A stretch of DNA of 64,000 nucleotides from Eubacteriales bacterium (GCA_045541355.1 JAZQIW010000071.1:7795-71794); one strand, 5' to 3'; positions 5,908 to 62,074 are shown, counted from the stretch's first letter. A program made the numbers and translations. The notes: a model not told the origin generated them from the sequence alone.

Positions 5908-6006
5908 AAAAGCCGCTCCTTGTTTTTTGTTGCGGGAGATATTTTACTATATTTCAGCATAGTTGTCAAGACGTAACGGCATATTGTGCCGTAAATGTTA
6001 AAACCC

Positions 6007-53352: not shown

Positions 53353-54141
53353 ATGAGACTTGGAAGAATATGCTTTGACCATTCTGCGGAAGGTTATAAA
53401 AAGGTAAAAGCAGCGGGACTTGATTTTGTTGAAATCTGCTGTAATTATGACCATGACGTAAAGGGTATTATAGAGATAAGAGATACAATTAAAGATGCCA
53501 TAAATCAAAGCGGCGTTGATGTTTCCTGCCTTGGAAAGTGGAATCATGAGCTGTTGAAGGACGGCAAAATTAATTATGAGCAGCTTGACTCTTATAAAGC
53601 TCTTCTGGATACAGCTGTTTTTCTCGGAGCAAAAACCTTTGTTTGCGGCTGTAATTATGATGACAGCATCAGCCTTTATCGTAATTATACAAACGCAATT
53701 GAGGCACTCGGCGCACTTACTGAGCACGCAAAGGGTAAAAACATAAAGGTTGCCGTGCAGAACTGTGATTGGAATAACTTTATTGTAAGACCGGAGCAAT
53801 GGAATATTGTGCTTGGCGAAAACCCTGACCTTTGGATTAAGTTTGACCCGTCACATGCCTATAACAGACATGATAATTACCTGGATGAGCTTGCTGATTG
53901 GTGTCATAGAATTGCCCATATTCATATCAAGGGTACAACTCATGCAGGAACAAAAGGAGAAATAGACGATCCGCCGGCAGGAATGGATGATTTAAATTGG
54001 AGATCTGTTTTTGCTGTACTGTATTCAAGAGGGTATGACGGAGACCTTAGCCTTGAACCTCACTCCACAACATGGAGAGGCGAGCTTGGAGAAGCGGGCG
54101 TTGCCTTTTCAAGGGACTATATAAGAAAATATATGCTTTAA
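53353..54141 (+). CDS. sugar phosphate isomerase/epimerase (xylose isomerase-like TIM barrel)
   Basis: ggagga RBS then ATG at 53353. VQNC, FDPSH, HIHIKG and LEPH pattern. Confidence 0.7.
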   Translation: MRLGRICFDHSAEGYKKVKAAGLDFVEICCNYDHDVKGIIEIRDTIKDAINQSGVDVSCLGKWNHELLKDGKINYEQLDSYKALLDTAVFLGAKTFVCGCNYDDSISLYRNYTNAIEALGALTEHAKGKNIKVAVQNCDWNNFIVRPEQWNIVLGENPDLWIKFDPSHAYNRHDNYLDELADWCHRIAHIHIKGTTHAGTKGEIDDPPAGMDDLNWRSVFAVLYSRGYDGDLSLEPHSTTWRGELGEAGVAFSRDYIRKYML

Positions 54142-54145
54142 AAAA

Positions 54146-54165
54146 ATGCGGTCGAAAGACCGCAT
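54146..54165. terminator. bidirectional terminator hairpin between convergent genes
   Basis: atgcggtc-gaaa-gaccgcat with an A-run on the left and TT on the right. It sits exactly between the two stop codons. Confidence 0.65.
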
Positions 54166-55194
54166 TTAGCTTTGTGTGGGGGAGTTTTTCTTTATCTTTT
54201 TCTTTTTAAGACTGACTCTCATAAAGCTTTCTCTGTACTCAATGGGAGTCATGCCGCGGTATTTTTTGAACATCCTTGTGAAATGCTCGGCGCTGTCCAG
54301 CCCTAAAAGATATGCAATGTTTTTGACGGGAATATGGGTGTTGAGCAAAAAATGACGTGCTCTTTGCATTCGGATTTGCTTGATAATGTCGGTGAAGCTG
54401 ACACCGGTTTTGGCTTTGATTATTCTGTGAAGCTGACTTTTTGAGTATCCGAAACGAAGGGCAGTATCCTCAAGTGTGATTTTGTCAAAGTTGTCATTTA
54501 TGTACCTGACTATATCGTCGGGCGAATGGTCGTCTGCGTGCCTGCTTTTTCCTTGCTTGCGGCTGTACTCATGACGAGTAAATCGGGTCAGATACAGGAG
54601 AAACTCGGAAATGCGGTTTTCAAAGTAGAGGTTTTCAAATAAATCAACGTGCCGATTGAGCTTTATGTTCAGCTCAACAAGTGTCTGTGTAAGCTCATGA
54701 ATGTCGATTGAAGAATTGTCTGAAGTACTGATAACGGTGTATATGTCGTTTTTAATCAGACTCGTCAGGTAGTTTCCGGGATCGTATGCCTCAAAGCCCT
54801 TTGCAATGCTGCTGAGCCAATCTTTTTTTAAGATAAAATTATAGCTTAAAGAGTCATTTGGGCAAATATAAGCATGACCGATTTTGGGAGACATGATAAG
54901 TAGGTCACCCTCATGAAGCACGGTCTTTTTTCCGTCAATATATTCATATAACTCACCCTTTTTTACGTAGTTTATTTCATAAAAGTCGTGATTGTGGTAT
55001 ACTGTATTGTCATCGACACGCATTTGTGTAATAATGGCGTTTCTCAAAGGGTTGGAGTCGCGTTCGGCAAAATAATAGGTGATTGGAGAGGGTGGAATGT
55101 TTGCTTTCTCAACAATCTTTTCAAGCTGTACAAGGAGTTCGTTTTCTTTTACTATAACAGGCTCCTGAGTTGTTTTCTTTGTGTTTACAGACAT
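54166..55194 (-). CDS. AraC family transcriptional regulator
   Basis: gaggtgaag RBS. Cupin N-terminal domain. HTH pair (LEDTALRFGYSKSQLHRIIK ... IAYLLGLDSAEHFTRMFKK). Confidence 0.8.
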   Translation of the reverse strand: MSVNTKKTTQEPVIVKENELLVQLEKIVEKANIPPSPITYYFAERDSNPLRNAIITQMRVDDNTVYHNHDFYEINYVKKGELYEYIDGKKTVLHEGDLLIMSPKIGHAYICPNDSLSYNFILKKDWLSSIAKGFEAYDPGNYLTSLIKNDIYTVISTSDNSSIDIHELTQTLVELNIKLNRHVDLFENLYFENRISEFLLYLTRFTRHEYSRKQGKSRHADDHSPDDIVRYINDNFDKITLEDTALRFGYSKSQLHRIIKAKTGVSFTDIIKQIRMQRARHFLLNTHIPVKNIAYLLGLDSAEHFTRMFKKYRGMTPIEYRESFMRVSLKKKKIKKNSPTQS

Positions 55195-55358
55195 CCCGGC
55201 ACTTCACCTCACATTCTTTGTTAATTATACATCAAATGACAAAAAAAGTCAAGAAAAAAATTTTTTATGCAAAAAAAAGTCATTGAATGAGTAACGCGTA
55301 TGTGATATTCTAATAATAGAAATTATAAGGGCTATTGTTAGAGTAAGGATGTGAAAAA

Positions 55359-56192
55359 ATGATTTGCCTGTTATCTCCAATGAAGCTTGAAGAATGTAGC
55401 CTGTATTGTTTTGGCGTTGGAAAGGCTTCCTGCAAATATGAAACAAAGGAACGCTTTTACGAGCTGTATTTAATAACAGCAGGGGAAGGGCAGATGGTTT
55501 CTTCCGACAATACGGTTCCCGTCAAAAAAGGCGATATTTATATCTCCTTTCCTTTTGAAAAACAAAAGCTTGTGTCAAATGATGGCTGTGAGATTGAATA
55601 TGATTATTTGAACTTCAGCGTTCATTCCAAACGGTTTGCATCTGAGTTTAACAGATTCAGCGTGGATTATTCATCAACCGTTTCGCACGTTCTTAACAGT
55701 GAAGAGCTAAGTAAAACAATCAGAAGTATATCTAAAGAACTTGAATTGTCGACGGAGGGATATTCGTACGAGCTTGTTTCGCTGTTTTGCAGCCAGATGC
55801 TTGTTTATATAATGAGAATATTCGGCGAGAGAAGCGCCGATGATTATAATCATTGCAGAAATGATTTTGGTCTTTGCGGTATGGTTATGAACTATATTGA
55901 CCAGAATGTTGGCACAATGAAGAGCCTGAAGAATATGGCGTCGGATATCGGATATAATTACAGTTATCTTTCATACGTATTCAGAAAAACAACCGGAACA
56001 ACGCTTAACAGCTATTATAAGTCGAGAAGGATGGACGCGGCAAGAACGCTTTTGGATGAAGGCGGTCTTTCCGTATCAAAGGTTGCAGAGCTTATGAATT
56101 ACTCGACGGTATATGCGTTCAGTAAAGCCTTTAAAGAATACTTCGGTATTTCACCCAGTAAGTATCTCGGTAAGGGTTCTTCAAAAGAATAG
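55359..56192 (+). CDS. AraC family transcriptional regulator
   Basis: Cupin-like N-terminus. HTH pair (NMASDIGYNYSYLSYVFRK ... VAELMNYSTVYAFSKAFKE). Divergent from the preceding AraC gene. Confidence 0.8.
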   Translation: MICLLSPMKLEECSLYCFGVGKASCKYETKERFYELYLITAGEGQMVSSDNTVPVKKGDIYISFPFEKQKLVSNDGCEIEYDYLNFSVHSKRFASEFNRFSVDYSSTVSHVLNSEELSKTIRSISKELELSTEGYSYELVSLFCSQMLVYIMRIFGERSADDYNHCRNDFGLCGMVMNYIDQNVGTMKSLKNMASDIGYNYSYLSYVFRKTTGTTLNSYYKSRRMDAARTLLDEGGLSVSKVAELMNYSTVYAFSKAFKEYFGISPSKYLGKGSSKE

Positions 56193-56198
56193 AATTTT

Positions 56199-56225
56199 CA
56201 CCCGACACAAGTCGGGTGTTTTTTT
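56199..56225 (+). terminator. rho-independent terminator
   Basis: cacccgac-acaa-gtcgggtg followed by T7. Confidence 0.85.
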
Positions 56226-56358
56226 GGTTTTGGTATATTAAAATATAAACGATAATTTTTTCACAATCTGCCTAAAATTTACAAAATATACGTATTTACA
56301 TACCTAAATTGTGGTAAAATAAATTGGTTATTGATAAAACAGTATAGGAGGTGCCCAT

Positions 56359-56736
56359 ATGGGAAAGACATACGGAAAGAAAACATGGCTGATTCCAGAT
56401 TGTTTTCTCAACTCTGTTTCAAAAAACGAAAGCATAAGCCACGAAGCAATCTGCGTGCTAAATACATCCGATAAGGATGCAACAATCAATCTTACACTGT
56501 TCTATGAGGACAGAGATAAGATTGAGGGCGATTTTGTTTCCTTCTGCAAGGCAGGAAGAACACATCATATAAGACTTGATAGAATCGTCGGTAAGAGCGG
56601 GGAGAAGATTGCGCGTGATGTTCCCTATGCAATTCTTGTTGAATCCGATACAGATGTAGTCTGCCAATATTCAAGACTTGATACAAGTGAGGTCGAAATG
56701 GCACTTATGACTACCATGGCATACCCTGTTGAATAA
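56359..56736 (+). CDS. ASRT-family protein (Anabaena sensory rhodopsin transducer-like beta-sandwich)
   Basis: aggaggtg RBS. 125 aa. ISHEAICVLNTSDKDATINLTLFYEDRD ... GRTHHIRLD ... VVCQYSRLDT...MALMTTMAY aligns with my recollection of the ASRT family over its full length. Confidence 0.55.
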   Translation: MGKTYGKKTWLIPDCFLNSVSKNESISHEAICVLNTSDKDATINLTLFYEDRDKIEGDFVSFCKAGRTHHIRLDRIVGKSGEKIARDVPYAILVESDTDVVCQYSRLDTSEVEMALMTTMAYPVE

Positions 56737-56776
56737 AGAATAATAAAAAAACATAAAATAAAGGAGCTGTCACAAA

Positions 56777-57349
56777 ATGGCACAGGTATTAATTGAAACA
56801 TCAGCACGTCACGTGCATCTCACAGCTGAACATATCGAAATTCTTTTCGGTAAGGGACATGAACTTACACATAAGAAGGATCTCAGTCAGCCCGGTCAGT
56901 TTGCGTGTGAAGAAAGAGTAACGGTTGTAGGTCCCAAGAAGGAGCTTGCAGGCGTTAGTATCCTTGGTCCCGCAAGACCTGCTTCTCAGGTTGAGCTTTC
57001 CCTCACAGATGCAAGAAGCATCGGAGTTGCCGCACCCATAAGAGAGTCAGGCGATGTTGCAGGCTCAGGTGCATGTAAGCTTGTTGGTCCTTGCGGTGAG
57101 GTTGAACTTTCCGAAGGCGTAATCGCTGCAAAGCGTCATATACATACAACTCCCGACGTTGCTGCTGAATGGGGCGTTTCCGATAAGCAGGTTGTTTCCG
57201 TAAAGGTTGAATCCGACGGCAGAAGCCTTGTGTTCGGCGATGTTGTAGTAAGAGTAAGCGAAAAGTTTGCACCTGCAATGCATATTGATACAGACGAATC
57301 AAACGCCGCTTCCTGCACACCCGGCATGATGGGAGAAATTATTAAATAA
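56777..57349 (+). CDS. pduL: phosphate acyltransferase PduL (phosphate propanoyl/acetyl-transferase)
   Basis: Two PduL half-domain signatures, ETSARHVHLT and AAKRHIHTT. 190 aa with no N-terminal extension. Confidence 0.85.
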   Translation: MAQVLIETSARHVHLTAEHIEILFGKGHELTHKKDLSQPGQFACEERVTVVGPKKELAGVSILGPARPASQVELSLTDARSIGVAAPIRESGDVAGSGACKLVGPCGEVELSEGVIAAKRHIHTTPDVAAEWGVSDKQVVSVKVESDGRSLVFGDVVVRVSEKFAPAMHIDTDESNAASCTPGMMGEIIK

Positions 57350-57391
57350 ATGCAAAATGCAAAATGCAAAATGTAAAATGTAAGGTGCAAA
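57350..57391 (+). repeat. heptanucleotide tandem repeat (ATGCAAA x3, ATGTAAA, ATGTAAG, GTGCAAA)
   Basis: Read directly. It begins at the base after the pduL stop codon. Confidence 0.9.
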
Positions 57392-57475
57392 GTGATTTGG
57401 GAATTTTGTTCCGAAAAAAACGTTTTCAAGTAAATTGAAATAAAGATTTTCAAATAAAGAAAGGATGTAGAACAC

Positions 57476-58168
57476 ATGAATTACACATCAGAAGTAAATG
57501 AAATGTGCTGTGTAGCCAAGGGTCCTCATCACGGTCCCGCGCCTATCCCCGAAGAAGGCAGATGGGTACAGGCTAAGGAAATTTCCGATATATCCGGTTT
57601 TACACACGGTATCGGTTGGTGCGCACCTCAGCAGGGTGCATGTAAGCTCTCCCTCAACGTAAAGAACGGTATCATCGAAGAAGCACTCGTTGAAACAATC
57701 GGTTGCTCCGGTATGACACACTCTGCAGCTATGGCTGCTGAAATTCTTCAGGGTAAGACAATCCTTGAAGCACTTAATACAGACCTTGTTTGCGATGCTA
57801 TCAATACAGCAATGCGCGAACTCTTCCTCCAGATTGTATACGGACGTTCACAGTCCGCATTCTCCGAAGACGGTCTTTCCGTAGGCGCAGGTCTTGAAGA
57901 CCTTGGTAAGGGTCAGAGAAGCCAGGTTGGTACAATGTACGGCACAAAGGCTAAGGGCGTAAGATATCTTGAAATGGCTGAAGGCTATGTAACAAGAATG
58001 GCACTTGACGAAGACGATCAGGTTATCGGTTACGAATTCGTAGCACTCGGTAAGATGACAGACTTCATCAAGAAGGGCGATGACCCCAACACCGCATACG
58101 AAAAGTCCAAGGGCACATACGGCAGATTCGATGATGCTGCAAAGTACATCGATCCCAGAAAAGAATAA
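57476..58168 (+). CDS. IscU/NifU N-terminal-like Fe-S scaffold-fold protein with a C-terminal extension of about 100 aa
   Basis: aaaggatg RBS. Spacing ACKLSLNV..G.I.EA.VETIGCSGMTHSAAMAAE...GKT..EAL ... LVCDAI mirrors the three-Cys IscU pattern. Confidence 0.6.
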   Translation: MNYTSEVNEMCCVAKGPHHGPAPIPEEGRWVQAKEISDISGFTHGIGWCAPQQGACKLSLNVKNGIIEEALVETIGCSGMTHSAAMAAEILQGKTILEALNTDLVCDAINTAMRELFLQIVYGRSQSAFSEDGLSVGAGLEDLGKGQRSQVGTMYGTKAKGVRYLEMAEGYVTRMALDEDDQVIGYEFVALGKMTDFIKKGDDPNTAYEKSKGTYGRFDDAAKYIDPRKE

Positions 58169-58187
58169 TCGAGGGAGGTAAATAGAA

Positions 58188-59186
58188 ATGGCATTATTTG
58201 AAAGCTACGAAAGAAGAATTGACAAAATAAATGCAGTTCTTGCCGAATACGGTATTAAGTCCGTTGAGGAATGTAAAGAAATCACCCTCGCTAAGGGTAT
58301 CGACTGCGATAAAATCGTAAGAGAAACACAGCCTATCTGCTTTGAAAATGCAGTTTGGGCATATACAGTAGGTGCTGCTATTGCAATCAAGAAGGGTTGC
58401 GTAAAGGCAGCAGACGCAGCTGCTGCAATCGGTATAGGCCTTCAGGCTTTCTGTATAAACGGCTCTGTTGCTGAAAACAGAAAGGTAGGTCTCGGCCACG
58501 GTAACCTCGGCGCAATGCTTCTTTCCGAAGAAACAGAGTGCTTCTGCTTCCTTGCAGGTCACGAGTCCTTTGCAGCTGCTGAAGGTGCAATCAAGATTGC
58601 TCTTAATGCTAATAAGGTTAGAACAAAGCCTCTCAGAGTTATCCTTAACGGTCTCGGTAAGGACGCTGCATTCATCATTTCCAGAATCAACGGCTTCACA
58701 TATGTAAAGACAGAGTTTGATCCTGCTACTGAAGAAGTTAAGATTGTAGATGAACACGCATACTCCAAGACAGCAAGAGCTAACGTTCGTTGCTACGGCG
58801 CAGACAGCGTTCCCGAAGGCGTTGCTATCATGAGACTTGAAAATGTTGGCGTTTCCATCACAGGTAACTCCACAAACCCCACAAGATTCCAGCATCCCGT
58901 TGCAGGCACCTACAAGAAGTGGTGTAACGAAAACGGCAGAAAGTACTTCTCTGTTGCTTCCGGCGGCGGTACAGGTAGAACGCTCCATCCCGATAACATG
59001 GCAGCAGGCCCTGCTTCCTACGGTATGACAGATACAATGGGTAGAATGCACGGCGACGCTCAGTTCGCAGGCTCTTCTTCCGTTCCTGCACACGTAGAAA
59101 TGATGGGTCTCATCGGCATGGGTAATAATCCTATGGTAGGTGCTACAGTTGCAGTGGCTGTTGCTGTTGAAGAAGCGTCTAAGTAA
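58188..59186 (+). CDS. GGGtGRT-family protein (function unknown)
   Basis: gggagg RBS. 332 aa. Eponymous motif GGGTGRT encoded at 58962-58982 within SVASGGGTGRTLHPDN, followed by a Gly/Met-rich C-terminus. Confidence 0.7.
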   Translation: MALFESYERRIDKINAVLAEYGIKSVEECKEITLAKGIDCDKIVRETQPICFENAVWAYTVGAAIAIKKGCVKAADAAAAIGIGLQAFCINGSVAENRKVGLGHGNLGAMLLSEETECFCFLAGHESFAAAEGAIKIALNANKVRTKPLRVILNGLGKDAAFIISRINGFTYVKTEFDPATEEVKIVDEHAYSKTARANVRCYGADSVPEGVAIMRLENVGVSITGNSTNPTRFQHPVAGTYKKWCNENGRKYFSVASGGGTGRTLHPDNMAAGPASYGMTDTMGRMHGDAQFAGSSSVPAHVEMMGLIGMGNNPMVGATVAVAVAVEEASK

Positions 59187-59275
59187 TTCCTTGATTTTCA
59201 AGGCTTTTGGGACTTTTTGAAAATTCCTTAAAGCATCGAAAAAAATCCGATTACTGAAATTAAATATTAAAAAAG

Positions 59276-59327
59276 TTGGACACATCATTTGTGTATTTTT
59301 GCATGGTGATGTGTCCAATATTTTTTT
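59276..59327 (+). terminator. rho-independent terminator
   Basis: ttggacacatca-(19 nt)-tgatgtgtccaa, a 12-bp stem, followed by a T-run. Confidence 0.8.
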
Positions 59328-59348
59328 GCATATAAGGGGGATTTTTCG

Positions 59349-59462
59349 ATGAAAAAGATTAAGATGAAAAGAGGAACAACGCTCACTTTCGAAGAGGGCT
59401 GTGATAAGTATCTTGAGTACTGCAGACAGAGGAATTTAAGAGAAGGAACTATAAGACATTAA
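59349..59462 (+). pseudogene. 37-codon remnant of a tyrosine recombinase/integrase N-terminus
   Basis: MKKIKMKRGTTLTFEEGCDKYLEYCRQRNLREGTIRH then stop. This resembles the SAM-like N-terminal domain of clostridial phage-type integrases. No catalytic domain follows. Confidence 0.5.
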
Positions 59463-59776
59463 TGCAGGATAAAATCAATCAGATTTGTACAAGTAAATAA
59501 AGTACTTTGGGCGGATATTCCGTCCTTTTCTTTTGTCATTGTATAAGATTCACCCTTTTATAGTGCCCTTTCAAAACTTGTAAAAAAACGGTAAAAATAG
59601 CTATTGTTTTATGTTTGTTTATTGAAAAAATGTTCTTTGTTTATTGATTTTTCTGTAATTATATGATATACTGGAATATAAAATCAGGCGGACTATACAT
59701 TTGTGATGTTAAATGGTGTATAGACGGATGATATTTTATGTTAAAATTACTATCTTATGAAAGAAGATGCATGTAG

Positions 59777-62074
59777 TTGGCAATAACCTACGAAAGAAAA
59801 AAACAAAGACAAAATAACATTGTTTATACCGTTGTTACGGCGGTATTGATATGTGCCGTTTTCTTGGCAATGGTTACGTCTTTTTATATAAAGGCAGAAA
59901 ATGATGCCTATGAGATGCTCCACATCCAGACAAAGCAAATTAAGGATCATCTTGAACTGCAGCTGGAGTCTGATAGAGAAAATCTTGTAACAATGGCAAA
60001 CTTTGCCTCAAAGCTTTATACTAACGGGGAAAGCTATGATATCATGTTTGAGTCCTTCAAGTCCATAGGTCTCATATCAAATATCGGTATTCTTAATCCG
60101 GATAATACTTTTGTTACCAAAATGGGAGAACTTGATCTTAATGGTATTATTTCCTTTGAAGACGAAGCTGCAAGGGGAGAGTATATAAGCGGCAGAATTC
60201 CCGACCTTACAGGCGCAGGCAAAGATATTGTCAGAAGTGCTGTGCCCATTAAAGTAAACGGTGAAACGGTTGGAATTCTTTACGGTGTAATTCAGCTTGA
60301 TGTTATAGGCGAAAAGTATAATGCTATGGCAAAAGAGCTTAATGCTCAGCTTTTTGTATATGATAAAGAAACAGGAAAATTTGTTATTGATACCATTAAT
60401 GATAAACCGGGTGAACTGTCAGACTTTAAGGATAGAGCTTATAATGATGACTATTCTTATGAAGCTTTGGCACAAGGCAATAAGGGATTTTCTTCATTTA
60501 AGTCAATCATTACCGGTGAGGATTTGTATATCCATTATTCTACCATTGAAGATTTTGACTGGGGAATCATACTTGCCCGTTATGAAACACAGGTTTTTGA
60601 GGAAACACATAAGATTTCATATAGTGTTATGATAATTTTTGTAGTGATTATTCTCATTATGGCTGTATATCTTGAACTTATACTTAAGAATGAAAAGAAC
60701 AGGGCAAAGTTGAATTCCGAGTCTTCTTCAATAAGACACCTTCTCCTTGAGATTAACCAAAACCATGAAAATATAAATACGGCTCTTAAGAGAATAAAGG
60801 AATTTTCAAGTGCACGTTCCTGCTTTTTCGCCGATACCGATGGAGAGTACTATAACTATATCAAACCCTCGTTAAAGGAAAAAGAGATAAAGGGCGAGGA
60901 AAAAACATATTTAATAGGCGAGTTGTTCAGATATGCGGCAAATGTGCATACAGACAGCCTTGTGACAGGCTTTATGCAGATTCTCCCTAACGGACATCTT
61001 GCAAAGACAAATCCCGAACTTTACGAATTTCTTACCGGGCATGATATCAGAGATATATCCTTTGCAATTATCTCTGATAAAAATAATCATGTAAGTATTC
61101 TCGGTACAATTAACCCTAAAAAGAGCATCTTTATAAGTAAGCTTATCGGCGATGTTGCAGTATGCTTCTCAATTGCTATTTATAATAAGAAACACCTTAA
61201 TAAAACTGAACTTGCCGCAACAACCGACTCTCTTACGGGAGCAATGAACAGGGTTGCTTATAAAAAGGATATTCTTGTATTTGATGAAGAAAATCCTGAA
61301 GATTTTTCGTGCATTTATATTGACGTAAATGAGCTTCATATCAGAAATAATAAGTACGGTCACGCCGCAGGTGACGAAATGCTTATCTTTATTGCAAACT
61401 CCTTGAAGGAAGTGTTCTACGGACAGAGCATTTACCGCATGGGCGGTGATGAATTTCTTGTATTTGCAAAGAAAATATCCCATGACGTTGTCAAACAGAA
61501 TATTGAGACCTTTGTAGAGCAGCTTAAACCCAAAGGCTATAATGTTGCAATAGGTATGTCCTTCAGAAGCTGTAATATCAACTGCGAAGAAATGGTTCGT
61601 GAAGCTGAGATAAGAATGTATGAAGCAAAGGCTTTGTACTATCAGAATAAGGAACAGCCATCGGTTTCTGAGGATTCAAATACGAATTTCAGCCAGATGA
61701 AGACAGGTATCAGAGAAATTGATACAATGATTTCCGTGCTTAAAGAACACTATAACGGCATATACAGAGTGTCTCTTGATACCGACAGTGCACAGGGAAT
61801 TCTTATGCCTTCATATCTGGGCTACGGTGAAACTGATACAAGCTTTTCAAATGTGCTGAAAAAGTATATCAGTGACTATGTACATCCCGATTTTCACCGT
61901 GCAGTTACCACTTTCCTGAACTTTGATGCAATAAAACGTCAGTTGCTTGACGGTAAAGCTGTGTCAATTACATATAAAAAGGTAAACGGAGAAACAGTAA
62001 TTCTCAGTGTACATAATCTTGATGATAACAGCGGTGATGTAAAGGATACTCTTTGGGTATTCGCAAGAGAATAA
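59777..62074 (+). CDS. membrane sensor diguanylate cyclase (Cache-like periplasmic domain, TM, GAF/PAS-like domain, GGDEF, extra C-terminal domain)
   Basis: Two TM segments flank a roughly 250-aa extracytoplasmic domain. GGDEF core YGHAAGDEML ... YRMGGDEFLVF. The TTG start at 59777 is uncertain. Confidence 0.8.
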   Translation: MAITYERKKQRQNNIVYTVVTAVLICAVFLAMVTSFYIKAENDAYEMLHIQTKQIKDHLELQLESDRENLVTMANFASKLYTNGESYDIMFESFKSIGLISNIGILNPDNTFVTKMGELDLNGIISFEDEAARGEYISGRIPDLTGAGKDIVRSAVPIKVNGETVGILYGVIQLDVIGEKYNAMAKELNAQLFVYDKETGKFVIDTINDKPGELSDFKDRAYNDDYSYEALAQGNKGFSSFKSIITGEDLYIHYSTIEDFDWGIILARYETQVFEETHKISYSVMIIFVVIILIMAVYLELILKNEKNRAKLNSESSSIRHLLLEINQNHENINTALKRIKEFSSARSCFFADTDGEYYNYIKPSLKEKEIKGEEKTYLIGELFRYAANVHTDSLVTGFMQILPNGHLAKTNPELYEFLTGHDIRDISFAIISDKNNHVSILGTINPKKSIFISKLIGDVAVCFSIAIYNKKHLNKTELAATTDSLTGAMNRVAYKKDILVFDEENPEDFSCIYIDVNELHIRNNKYGHAAGDEMLIFIANSLKEVFYGQSIYRMGGDEFLVFAKKISHDVVKQNIETFVEQLKPKGYNVAIGMSFRSCNINCEEMVREAEIRMYEAKALYYQNKEQPSVSEDSNTNFSQMKTGIREIDTMISVLKEHYNGIYRVSLDTDSAQGILMPSYLGYGETDTSFSNVLKKYISDYVHPDFHRAVTTFLNFDAIKRQLLDGKAVSITYKKVNGETVILSVHNLDDNSGDVKDTLWVFARE

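What the first reader, a model, noticed from the sequence alone, without database searches (positions are those of the whole stretch)
56359..59186. Compact operon joining an ASRT-fold protein, PduL, an IscU-like protein and a GGGtGRT protein
Seen in sequence. Four co-directional ORFs have strong RBSs and gaps of 40, 126 and 19 nt. They are bracketed by strong terminators at 56199-56225 and 59276-59327. An AraC regulator gene lies immediately upstream. Established knowledge. PduL interconverts acyl-CoA and acyl-phosphate, and its two RH.H half-domain motifs are present. The IscU fold binds Fe-S clusters. GGGtGRT is a named but functionally uncharacterised family. ASRT-fold proteins have no assigned biochemical role outside cyanobacterial phototaxis. 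Inference. Two unknown-function families sit with an Fe-S scaffold-like protein and an acyl-phosphate-forming enzyme. This suggests an undescribed Fe-S-dependent catabolic or acyl-activating module feeding substrate-level phosphorylation, possibly tied to the sugar genes upstream. This PduL has no N-terminal encapsulation extension and the window has no microcompartment shell genes, so it is not a classical Pdu/BMC context.
Basis: partly seen in the sequence, partly recalled or inferred. Interest (0 to 1): 0.72.

Follow-up and report, generated by a model that had tools for sequence, protein, structure and literature searches.

The report
Composite operon around conserved GGGtGRT pair
The four genes are real and probably transcribed together, but only the last two (an IscU-like protein and a GGGtGRT protein) always travel together; that pair is an extremely conserved, abundant, iron-responsive module of anaerobes whose function is still unknown.

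Summary
Four co-directional ORFs lie at the stated coordinates with gaps of 40, 126 and 19 nt, Shine-Dalgarno sites and flanking terminators. All four family assignments are confirmed: ASRT, PduL/PTAC, a marginal IscU fold and GGGtGRT.

In 80 species-level loci the 230-aa IscU-like gene sits directly upstream of GGGtGRT in 77 of 77 testable cases. PduL is nearby in 7 of 80 and ASRT in none. The full four-gene order occurs only in a narrow clade. Other ASRT homologues sit in sugar isomerase/kinase/aldolase or Gfo/Idh/MocA loci, which fits the published sugar-sensor prediction.

The pair is 75-90% identical across phyla, including one archaeal MAG, although synonymous sites are saturated. It has no solved structural relative. 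Published work shows it is abundant and iron-dependent. A divergent clade of the pair always sits with phosphoglycerate mutases.

My best guess (about 0.4) is a two-subunit iron-sulfur metalloenzyme that acts on phosphorylated or acyl-phosphate C2-C3 intermediates, linked here to PduL. A role in Fe-S or iron handling is the main rival. No published function was found.

The parts
55359..56192 (+). AraC-family regulator immediately upstream (context; a second AraC gene lies at 54166-55194 on the - strand)
   Evidence: Pfam HTH_18, HTH_AraC and AraC_binding. The same gene precedes ASRT in L081, L082 and L084.
56199..56225 (+). Intrinsic terminator that closes the AraC gene
   Evidence: 8-bp stem with 6 GC pairs, followed by U7. 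dG -14.5 kcal/mol, z -3.7.
56312..56320 (+). Candidate extended -10 promoter element (TGgTAAAAT) for the four-gene unit; weak evidence
   Evidence: Read from the sequence. The consensus scan lists only a 9/12 site at 56260-56287.
56359..56736 (+). ASRT-family beta-sandwich protein (125 aa), a predicted small-molecule or sugar sensor. The SHEshChhN signature is SHEAICVLN at residues 27-35 (56437-56463).
   Evidence: PF07100 1.6e-38. PDB 2ii7 at 2e-17 and 1nc7 at 3e-16. Signature located. Homologues lie in sugar loci. Published prediction in PMC2739507.
56777..57349 (+). PduL-type phosphate acyltransferase (190 aa) without an encapsulation peptide. RHVH at 56807-56818 and RHIH at 57134-57145.
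   Evidence: PF06130 1.5e-79 and PRK15070 257 bits > 209. 5CUO 1e-40, aligned from residue 3. Motifs located.
57350..57475 (+). 126-nt spacer with no terminator and no promoter-like site. It begins with a heptamer repeat, (ATGCAAA)3(ATGTAAA)2.
57476..58168 (+). 230-aa IscU-like partner protein. Residues ~43-122 have an IscU fold with invariant C49, C56, C77 and C106. The C-terminal ~110 aa match no family.
   Evidence: NifU_N 23.4 bits. Profile against PDB matches IscU/NifU at 4e-5 over residues 57-113. All top Foldseek hits are ISCU/IscU/SufU, prob 1.0, TMt ~0.5. Invariant Cys, kept in the divergent clade. Directly upstream of GGGtGRT in 77/77 loci.
58188..59186 (+). GGGtGRT protein (332 aa). 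The model has a helical N-domain, a Rossmann-like alpha/beta domain, and a Gly/His-rich conserved segment (residues 259-305) that includes GGGTGRT at 58962-58982.
   Evidence: PF14057 4e-194. AF2 pLDDT 82, pTM 0.84. No Foldseek match in the PDB at E<=1e-3. No PDB sequence or profile match. Invariant residues.
59275..59327 (+). Intrinsic terminator that closes the unit
   Evidence: Hairpin of dG -25.2 kcal/mol, z -5.8, followed by a U run.

Best explanation
The locus is one probable transcription unit assembled from three evolutionary modules.

(1) ASRT module. The ASRT-like protein is a small-molecule, probably sugar, sensor. In other genomes it accompanies sugar-catabolic genes and AraC regulators. 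Here it sits at the edge of an AraC / Gfo-Idh-MocA / xylose-isomerase-like cluster.

(2) PduL module. This is a PduL-type phosphotransacylase with no microcompartment targeting peptide. It interconverts acyl-CoA and acyl-phosphate in the cytosol.

(3) Core module. The invariant IscU-like/GGGtGRT pair is the core. I infer that the two proteins form a heteromeric iron-sulfur metalloenzyme. The IscU-like subunit would hold a cluster on four invariant cysteines. GGGtGRT would supply a Rossmann-like domain, a glycine-rich loop after a beta-strand (SGGGTGRT, a likely phosphate-binding loop) and an invariant His/Asp/Glu/Cys constellation. The substrate is inferred to be a phosphorylated or acyl-phosphate C2-C3 intermediate of fermentative central metabolism. 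In this lineage the pair is co-transcribed with PduL, so acyl-phosphate and acyl-CoA pools are coupled to it.

Shown: gene structure, family membership, strict pairing, extreme purifying selection, lack of structural relatives, and the recurrent PduL and phosphoglycerate-mutase neighbours.

Inferred: complex formation, Fe-S binding, phosphate binding, substrate class, and any coupling to PduL or ASRT.
For: - Pairing. The IscU-like gene is directly upstream of GGGtGRT in 77/77 loci. The median gap is 17 nt, and distances between species correlate for the two genes (r 0.71). The genes overlap in the divergent clade.
- Constraint. The pair is 75-90% identical at the amino-acid level across Clostridia, Bacteroidota, Spirochaetes, Kiritimatiellae, Negativicutes and a Methanobacteriaceae MAG, while pS is 0.64-0.86. 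At 50% clustering of 15 billion proteins the family collapses to essentially two full-length clusters.
- Metal site. C49, C56, C77 and C106 are invariant on an IscU fold. In GGGtGRT, C202, H104, H125, E126, E132, H267, D269, D282, H288 and H302 are invariant.
- Iron dependence. The B. thetaiotaomicron orthologues BT0173-74 fall 11-13 fold in low iron (PMC10434189). The C. pasteurianum protein is 7.1-fold higher with iron, alongside PFOR and hydrogenase (PMC5395762).
- Abundance. The protein is highly expressed in gut and rumen proteomes.
- Link to phospho-metabolites. PduL lies immediately upstream in L007, L021, L023 and L066, and one SGNH-hydrolase gene away in L016, L028 and L048. GpmI lies 65 nt upstream in L080 and nearby in L035. 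All four divergent-clade members examined sit in an ApgM - IscU-like - GGGtGRT - 2-TM protein - His_Phos_1 operon, and L131 also carries GpmI.
- Genetics. Transposon insertions in BT0173-4 partly relieve glucose repression of Cur/Roc, as pfkA insertions do (bioRxiv 10.64898/2026.04.10.717545).
- Structure model. A beta-strand at 254-257 is followed by the SGGGTGRT loop at the edge of a Rossmann-like domain.
Against: - There is no biochemical evidence for a complex, a cluster or any substrate.
- In most genomes the pair stands alone among unrelated housekeeping genes.
- PduL linkage is confined to Oscillospirales-like genomes and could stem from a single ancestral event. GpmI adjacency in 2 of 80 loci is weak on its own.
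- B. thetaiotaomicron insertion mutants grow normally on glucose, and the Roc effect is only 2-fold.
- The most conserved segment of GGGtGRT is modelled with pLDDT below 50. The IscU-like model is poor overall, at pLDDT 56.
- The phosphate-loop reading of GGGTGRT rests on analogy only.
Confidence: 0.4

Rival explanations
1. The IscU-like/GGGtGRT pair is not a metabolic enzyme. It is an iron or Fe-S cluster handling system of anaerobes, acting as scaffold, carrier, storage or repair factor. The IscU-like protein would assemble or hold clusters, and GGGtGRT would be a nucleotide-dependent partner. PduL and ASRT would be unrelated neighbours.
For: - IscU fold with the cysteines retained.
- Strong iron-dependent expression in two phyla.
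- High abundance.
- Dispensable in vitro.
- Variable housekeeping context.
- A HydF-like GTPase near the pair in three loci, including Treponema, and rubredoxin next to it in Methanobacteriaceae.
- Extreme conservation would suit a protein that contacts many clients.
Against: - No neighbour family recurs in more than 6 of 80 loci, and none of the families I examined is a cysteine desulfurase.
- Scores against the IscU, NifU and SufU equivalog models are far below cut-off: 27 vs 188, 23.5 vs 192 and 19.9 vs 92.5.
- Four invariant Cys suggest a fixed rather than a transferable cluster (inference).
- From general knowledge, Fe-S assembly systems are usually maintained or induced in low iron, not repressed 12-fold.
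- This reading does not explain the PduL and phosphoglycerate-mutase neighbours.
Confidence: 0.3
2. The operon is an evolutionary juxtaposition with no functional coupling. ASRT belongs to the AraC/sugar regulon. PduL is simply the organism's cytosolic phosphotransacetylase. The pair is an independent, highly expressed bicistron that lost its own promoter in this clade.
For: - ASRT is in 0/80 and PduL in 7/80 of the pair's loci.
- The pair has its own near-consensus promoter and GAAAGGAG Shine-Dalgarno site in most genomes.
- ASRT homologues are in sugar loci.
- From my own knowledge, not checked here: PduL-type enzymes serve as housekeeping phosphotransacetylases outside microcompartments in some acetogens such as Moorella.
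- Integrase genes and remnants flank the pair, which suggests local rearrangement.
Against: - PduL linkage persists while PduL itself has diverged to 58-71% identity, and it occurs in two sub-architectures.
- The four-gene order is kept down to 79% ASRT and 82% PduL identity.
- Spacers are short and lack terminators.
Confidence: 0.25
3. One reading: all four proteins form one new Fe-S-dependent pathway that catabolises the sugar handled by the upstream genes and ends in substrate-level phosphorylation.
For: - Co-directional, tightly spaced genes between two terminators.
- AraC and sugar-enzyme genes lie upstream.
- The arrangement is conserved in L081-L085.
Against: - The four genes are not syntenic outside a narrow clade.
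- The pair occurs in about 600 or more species without these sugar genes.
- ASRT is a predicted binding or sensor protein, not an enzyme (PMC2739507).
Confidence: 0.08

Closest known systems
BT0173-BT0174 of Bacteroides thetaiotaomicron (GGGtGRT protein plus 'NifU' homologue)
   Same: The same two-gene pair, described as a pair. It is iron-dependent and dispensable in vitro, and its function is unassigned. Bacteroidota copies (Alistipes) of both genes are about 79-83% identical to the window's.
   Different: No PduL or ASRT is reported at that locus in the papers read; I did not inspect the locus itself. In the window the pair has no recognisable promoter of its own and follows PduL.
IscU / NifU N-terminal domain / SufU Fe-S scaffolds
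   Same: The fold of residues ~43-122. The GC(S/G)G cysteine motif and further invariant cysteines.
   Different: Only about 57 of 127 profile positions match. A ~13-residue segment before the last Cys is missing (my reading of the alignment). An extra invariant Cys is present. An unrelated 110-aa C-terminal half is added. No desulfurase neighbour was seen. Scores are far below the equivalog cut-offs.
PduL phosphate propanoyltransferase (Rhodopseudomonas palustris structure 5CUO)
   Same: Full-length PTAC match, both RHxH motifs, 1e-40 to 5CUO.
   Different: No encapsulation peptide and no shell genes in 64 kb. It scores below the BMC EutD model cut-off, 251 against 315.
ASRT / TM1070 (ASRAH superfamily; De Souza, Iyer and Aravind 2009)
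   Same: Full-length PF07100 match. The SHEshChhN ligand-pocket signature is present. Homologues sit in isomerase/kinase/aldolase loci, as that paper describes.
   Different: Here the gene is followed by PduL and the GGGtGRT pair. I did not see this neighbourhood described in the passages of that paper that I read.

Membership tests
GGGtGRT (PF14057) | Full-length match to the family profile above the gathering score | tested here: met
   644.3 bits against 27; residues 4-330 match profile positions 1-327 of 327.
GGGtGRT (PF14057) | Conserved GGGTGRT motif | tested here: met
   Residues 259-265. G259, G260, G261, T262, G263, R264 and T265 are invariant in 71 sequences that include the divergent clade.
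GGGtGRT / NifU-like gene pair (as BT0173-74) | A ~230-aa IscU-like gene directly adjacent and co-directional | tested here: met
   19-nt gap in the window. 77/77 loci have the pair, with a median gap of 17 nt.
PduL / PTAC (PF06130; NCBIfam PRK15070) | Profile match above the curated cut-offs and two RHxH half-domain motifs | tested here: met
   266 bits against 25 and 257 bits against 209. RHVH at residues 11-14 and RHIH at 120-123.
Microcompartment-associated PduL/EutD | N-terminal encapsulation peptide and neighbouring BMC shell genes | tested here: not met
   The alignment to 5CUO starts at residue 3. NF040837 scores 251 against a cut-off of 315. tblastn finds no PduA, EutM or EutN homologue in the window.
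ASRT (PF07100) | Profile match and the SHEshChhN strand-2 signature | tested here: met
   131.7 bits against 25. SHEAICVLN at residues 27-35. 2ii7 matches at 2e-17.
ASRT as rhodopsin transducer | Operon partner is a sensory rhodopsin | tested here: not met
   None of the ORFs in the unit or on either side of it that were scanned against Pfam is a rhodopsin. The rest of the window was not scanned.
IscU/NifU/SufU Fe-S scaffold | Profile match at equivalog level | tested here: not met
   TIGR03419 27 against 188, TIGR01999 23.5 against 192, TIGR01994 19.9 against 92.5. Pfam NifU_N only 23.4 against 22, over 57 residues.
IscU/NifU/SufU Fe-S scaffold | IscU fold with three cluster-ligand cysteines | tested here: inconclusive
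   All top Foldseek hits are ISCU/IscU/SufU, but the model has pLDDT 56. C49/C56, C77 and C106 are invariant, yet exact register with the IscU ligands is clear only for C77.
IscU/NifU/SufU Fe-S scaffold | Genomic association with a cysteine desulfurase | tested here: not met
   No neighbour family other than the pair recurs in more than 6 of 80 loci, and none of the recurrent families I examined is a desulfurase.
IscU/NifU/SufU Fe-S scaffold | Binds and transfers an Fe-S cluster | not testable with these tools
   Requires anaerobic purification and spectroscopy.

The most novel reading that the evidence does not exclude
The IscU-like/GGGtGRT pair is a structurally new iron-sulfur metalloenzyme of anaerobic central carbon metabolism, working at the phosphoglycerate or acyl-phosphate level. 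It is among the most conserved proteins of unknown function in gut and rumen anaerobes. The PduL-linked operon of this window and the phosphoglycerate-mutase-linked operon of the divergent clade would then be the first genomic clues to its substrate.
Probability: 0.3. Interest if true: 0.85.

Novelty: new variant of a known kind. Interest (0 to 1): 0.62.

Why it matters
They are among the abundant proteins of gut and rumen anaerobes and respond strongly to iron. They are more conserved across phyla than I would expect for almost any enzyme (general knowledge; housekeeping proteins were not compared here). They have no solved structural relative and no assigned function.

A locus that ties the pair to a defined enzyme (PduL), together with a second clade tied to phosphoglycerate mutases, narrows the search. 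It points to a testable class of substrates, namely phospho- or acyl-phosphate C2-C3 metabolites. It also suggests simple experiments in tractable hosts such as B. thetaiotaomicron.

If the pair proves to be an iron-handling system instead, that would still add a widespread component to anaerobe iron biology.

Tried and rejected
- **Riboswitch or leader upstream of the pair.** Rfam at E<=1 on 54000-60000, and at gathering score on seven loci, found nothing relevant.
- **Common operator upstream of the IscU-like gene.** In 70 loci only promoter and Shine-Dalgarno words are enriched. A TGTG-N6-CACA site occurs in just two related loci.
- **Natural IscU-like/GGGtGRT fusions.** The long 'proteins' in the libraries join GGGtGRT halves to unrelated proteins and look like assembly chimeras.
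- **Defence-system reading of the divergent-clade operon.** No PADLOC hits.
- **Remote homology of GGGtGRT.** phmmer and profile searches against PDB sequences, and Foldseek against the PDB, gave only insignificant Rossmann-like or USP-like partial matches. Best E was 8e-3 and best TMq 0.28.
- **Recent horizontal transfer as the cause of high identity.** Rejected because synonymous sites are saturated.
- **Annotated plasmid records (Vibrio, Persicobacter).** They carried no annotation. Pfam scans of their ORFs showed unrelated neighbours.
- **Viral contigs.** They carry the pair mostly at contig ends, which points to host flanks rather than phage genes.
Full report
**1. Observation**

The gaps are 40, 126 and 19 nt. 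Each start is preceded by a Shine-Dalgarno sequence.

An 8-bp GC-rich hairpin followed by U7 at 56199-56225 ends the upstream AraC gene. A long hairpin at 59275-59319 (dG -25.2 kcal/mol, z -5.8) followed by a U run ends the unit. The 126-nt spacer between PduL and the IscU-like gene has no terminator-like site or significant structure and no promoter-like site. On sequence grounds a single transcript is the simplest reading.

- ASRT, 131.7 bits.
- PTAC/PduL, 266 bits, and NCBIfam PRK15070, 257 bits against a cut-off of 209.
- NifU_N, only 23.4 bits against a cut-off of 22, over residues 57-113.
- GGGtGRT, 644 bits over the full length.

PduL has both RHxH motifs. It aligns to the R. palustris structure 5CUO from residue 3, so it has no N-terminal extension. 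The window holds no detectable shell-protein gene.

**2. Synteny: the cluster is a composite**

I examined the best 80 loci.
- In every locus that has DNA upstream of GGGtGRT (77 of 77), the 230-aa IscU-like gene lies directly upstream on the same strand. The median gap is 17 nt.
- PduL lies upstream in only 7 of the 80 loci. In four it is immediately adjacent (L007, L021, L023, L066). In three a 205-aa SGNH-type hydrolase lies between (L016, L028, L048).
- ASRT is in none of the 80 loci.

Searching from the ASRT side gave 40 metagenomic loci.
- Only the three closest have PduL after ASRT (94, 91 and 79% ASRT identity); two of them (L084, L085) extend far enough to show the pair as well, while L083 ends inside PduL. 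Two further contigs carry the window's own sequence.
- ASRT homologues of 51-72% identity lie instead between an FGGY sugar kinase and L-rhamnose isomerase, with a class II aldolase and an AraC regulator, or next to Gfo/Idh/MocA oxidoreductases.
- That is the isomerase/kinase/aldolase neighbourhood from which De Souza, Iyer and Aravind predicted in 2009 that solo ASRT-like proteins are intracellular sugar sensors (PMC2739507).
- The window protein carries their SHEshChhN pocket signature as SHEAICVLN.
- The genes upstream in the window are of the same kind: a GH109-like enzyme, three AraC regulators, two xylose-isomerase-like TIM barrels and a Gfo/Idh/MocA oxidoreductase.

No other neighbour of the pair recurs in more than 6 of the 80 loci. 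Those that do recur are housekeeping genes: a ClpP-like protease, YigZ, ClpC/McsAB, TyrS, a HydF-like GTPase and an integrase. In most genomes the pair has its own near-consensus promoter and a GAAAGGAG ribosome-binding site. The invariant unit is therefore the pair. PduL is a lineage-restricted addition and ASRT a still narrower one.

**3. The pair itself**

Conservation:
- Both proteins are 75-90% identical between the window and Alistipes, Treponema, Kiritimatiellae, Negativicutes, Erysipelotrichia and a Methanobacteriaceae MAG.
- Nucleotide identity is only 68-81%. The proportion of synonymous differences is 0.64-0.86 against other phyla, which is saturated. The conservation therefore reflects purifying selection (dN/dS at most about 0.1), not recent transfer.
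- In a library clustered at 50% identity from about 15 billion proteins, the full-length family collapses to essentially two clusters. The rest are fragments and chimeras.

GGGtGRT structure:
- AlphaFold2 gives a confident model, pLDDT 82 and pTM 0.84. It has a helical N-terminal domain and a Rossmann-like alpha/beta domain.
- The most conserved stretch, residues 259-305 (SGGGTGRT...HPDN...GRMH...GSSSVPAHVE), is modelled with pLDDT below 50. I take this to mean that it needs a partner or cofactor to fold.
- Foldseek finds no PDB match at E<=1e-3, with a best TM-score of 0.28. Sequence and profile searches of the PDB find nothing.

IscU-like partner:
- The model is poor overall (pLDDT 56), but every top Foldseek hit is ISCU, IscU or SufU.
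- Profile searches match IscU/NifU over residues ~43-113.
- Four cysteines (C49, C56, C77, C106) are invariant, including in the divergent clade.
- It falls far below the IscU, NifU and SufU equivalog cut-offs.
- Its C-terminal 110 residues match no family.
- None of the recurrent neighbour families examined is a cysteine desulfurase.

**4. Literature**

I found no assigned function. Papers up to 2026 call GGGtGRT poorly characterised or unclear. Useful facts from them:
- In B. thetaiotaomicron the same pair (BT0173-74) falls 11-13 fold in iron deficiency (PMC10434189).
- In C. pasteurianum the protein is 7.1-fold higher with iron, alongside PFOR and hydrogenase (PMC5395762).
- It is highly expressed in vivo in distantly related gut anaerobes and is detected in rumen metaproteomes together with 'NifU'.
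- In a screen for loss of glucose repression of Cur/Roc, insertions hit pfkA, an M16 peptidase locus and BT0173-4. The BT0173-4 effect was 2-fold, and growth on glucose was normal (bioRxiv 10.64898/2026.04.10.717545).

**5. A second context**

A divergent clade of GGGtGRT is 51-56% identical to the window protein. It also has the IscU-like partner (53% identical, with overlapping genes).

In all four members with enough flanking DNA, the pair sits in a conserved operon:
- an archaeal-type cofactor-independent phosphoglycerate mutase (NF003104, 517 and 491 bits against a cut-off of 489);
- the IscU-like gene;
- GGGtGRT;
- a ~320-aa protein whose hydrophobic N-terminus suggests two membrane helices (by eye; not run through a predictor);
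- a histidine-phosphatase (dPGM-like) protein.

One of these loci also has a bacterial GpmI. In the main clade, GpmI lies 65 nt upstream of the pair in L080 and nearby in L035.

Together with PduL and the Bacteroides phenotype, this points to phosphorylated or acyl-phosphate C2-C3 metabolites. It is a pointer, not proof.

**6. Mechanism**

I commit, at about 0.4, to the following.
- The pair is a heteromeric iron-sulfur metalloenzyme. The IscU-like subunit holds a fixed cluster on four cysteines.
- GGGtGRT provides a phosphate-binding glycine loop and a His/Asp/Glu/Cys site.
- The enzyme acts on a phospho- or acyl-phosphate intermediate of fermentation.
- In this clade it is co-transcribed with a cytosolic PduL that equilibrates acyl-CoA and acyl-phosphate.
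- An ASRT sugar sensor sits at the head of the unit.

The rivals are:
- An iron or Fe-S handling role for the pair (0.3). This is favoured by the IscU fold, the iron response and the variable context. It is disfavoured by the lack of a desulfurase neighbour, by repression in low iron and by the metabolic neighbours.
- Juxtaposition without functional coupling (0.25).

**7. Novelty**

All four families are catalogued, and the pair has been noticed before as BT0173-74. The window is therefore a variant of a known but uncharacterised kind.

What is new here:
- the ASRT-PduL-linked architecture;
- the demonstration of strict pairing;
- the measurement of how extreme the conservation is;
- the absence of any structural relative;
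- the phosphoglycerate-mutase-linked sister clade.

Noticed in passing
window 59349-59462 (+): A 37-aa ORF (MKKIKMKRGTTLTFEEGCDKYLEYCRQRNLREGTIRH*) is the truncated N-terminus of a tyrosine integrase. The full-length gene lies 167-448 nt downstream of GGGtGRT in L007, L008, L021 and L025. In IMG/VR, 39 'viral' contigs carry GGGtGRT, mostly close to a contig end. The 3' flank of the pair looks like an integration hot spot.
   Followed up: partly
window 57350-57383 (+): A heptamer tandem repeat, (ATGCAAA)3(ATGTAAA)2, starts right after the PduL stop codon at the beginning of the 126-nt spacer. No structure or known RNA family was found there.
   Followed up: partly
L123 3715-8606; L128 2572-8580; L131 391-6859; L133 301-5405: A divergent GGGtGRT/IscU-like clade sits in a conserved operon with ApgM-type phosphoglycerate mutase, a ~320-aa protein with a hydrophobic N-terminus and no family match, and a His_Phos_1 protein. 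L131 also has GpmI. In L123/L124 (the same element) an SSB-like ORF, an AAA_5 gene and an HTH gene lie nearby, and L123 also has a transposase; HTH genes also flank the operon in L128 and L131. No PADLOC hit.
   Followed up: partly
L080 7723-9225 and L035 5727-7277: The bacterial cofactor-independent phosphoglycerate mutase GpmI lies 65 nt upstream of the main-clade pair in L080, co-directional with it, and about 2 kb downstream of it in L035.
   Followed up: no
L016 8608-9234, L028 8615-9232, L048 ~1170-1784: A 205-208-aa GDSL/SGNH-type hydrolase (assigned from the N-terminal GDS motif, not run against Pfam) lies between PduL and the IscU-like gene in three Oscillospirales-like genomes.
   Followed up: no
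L101, L102, L106, L109, L110, L113-L115 around position 6000: ASRT homologues lie between an FGGY sugar kinase and L-rhamnose isomerase, with a class II aldolase and an AraC regulator. Pfam was run on L101, L106 and L109; the other loci are inferred from matching ORF layouts. This agrees with the 2009 sugar-sensor prediction and suggests rhamnose-type sugars as ligands.
   Followed up: partly
proteins P0241, P0253, P0272, P0333, P0247, P0249, P0254: Many database 'proteins' join part of GGGtGRT to unrelated proteins such as an ABC ATPase, a SusD-like protein or aspartokinase. They look like metagenome assembly chimeras made possible by the extreme conservation of this gene.
   Followed up: partly
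window 58194-59318 (-): A 374-aa antisense ORF covers the whole GGGtGRT gene. A similar antisense ORF appears in many of the related loci and distorted my naive ORF calls. It is very likely a shadow ORF, not a gene.
   Followed up: partly
L003 and L049, about 90 nt upstream of the IscU-like start: A TTGTGCAAATTCACAC palindrome (CRP/FNR- or Rex-like) overlaps the promoter of the pair in two related Acutalibacteraceae genomes only.
   Followed up: no
window 59777-62074 (+): A dCache-GGDEF diguanylate cyclase gene follows the unit. It has its own upstream region and shows no evident link to the unit.
   Followed up: no
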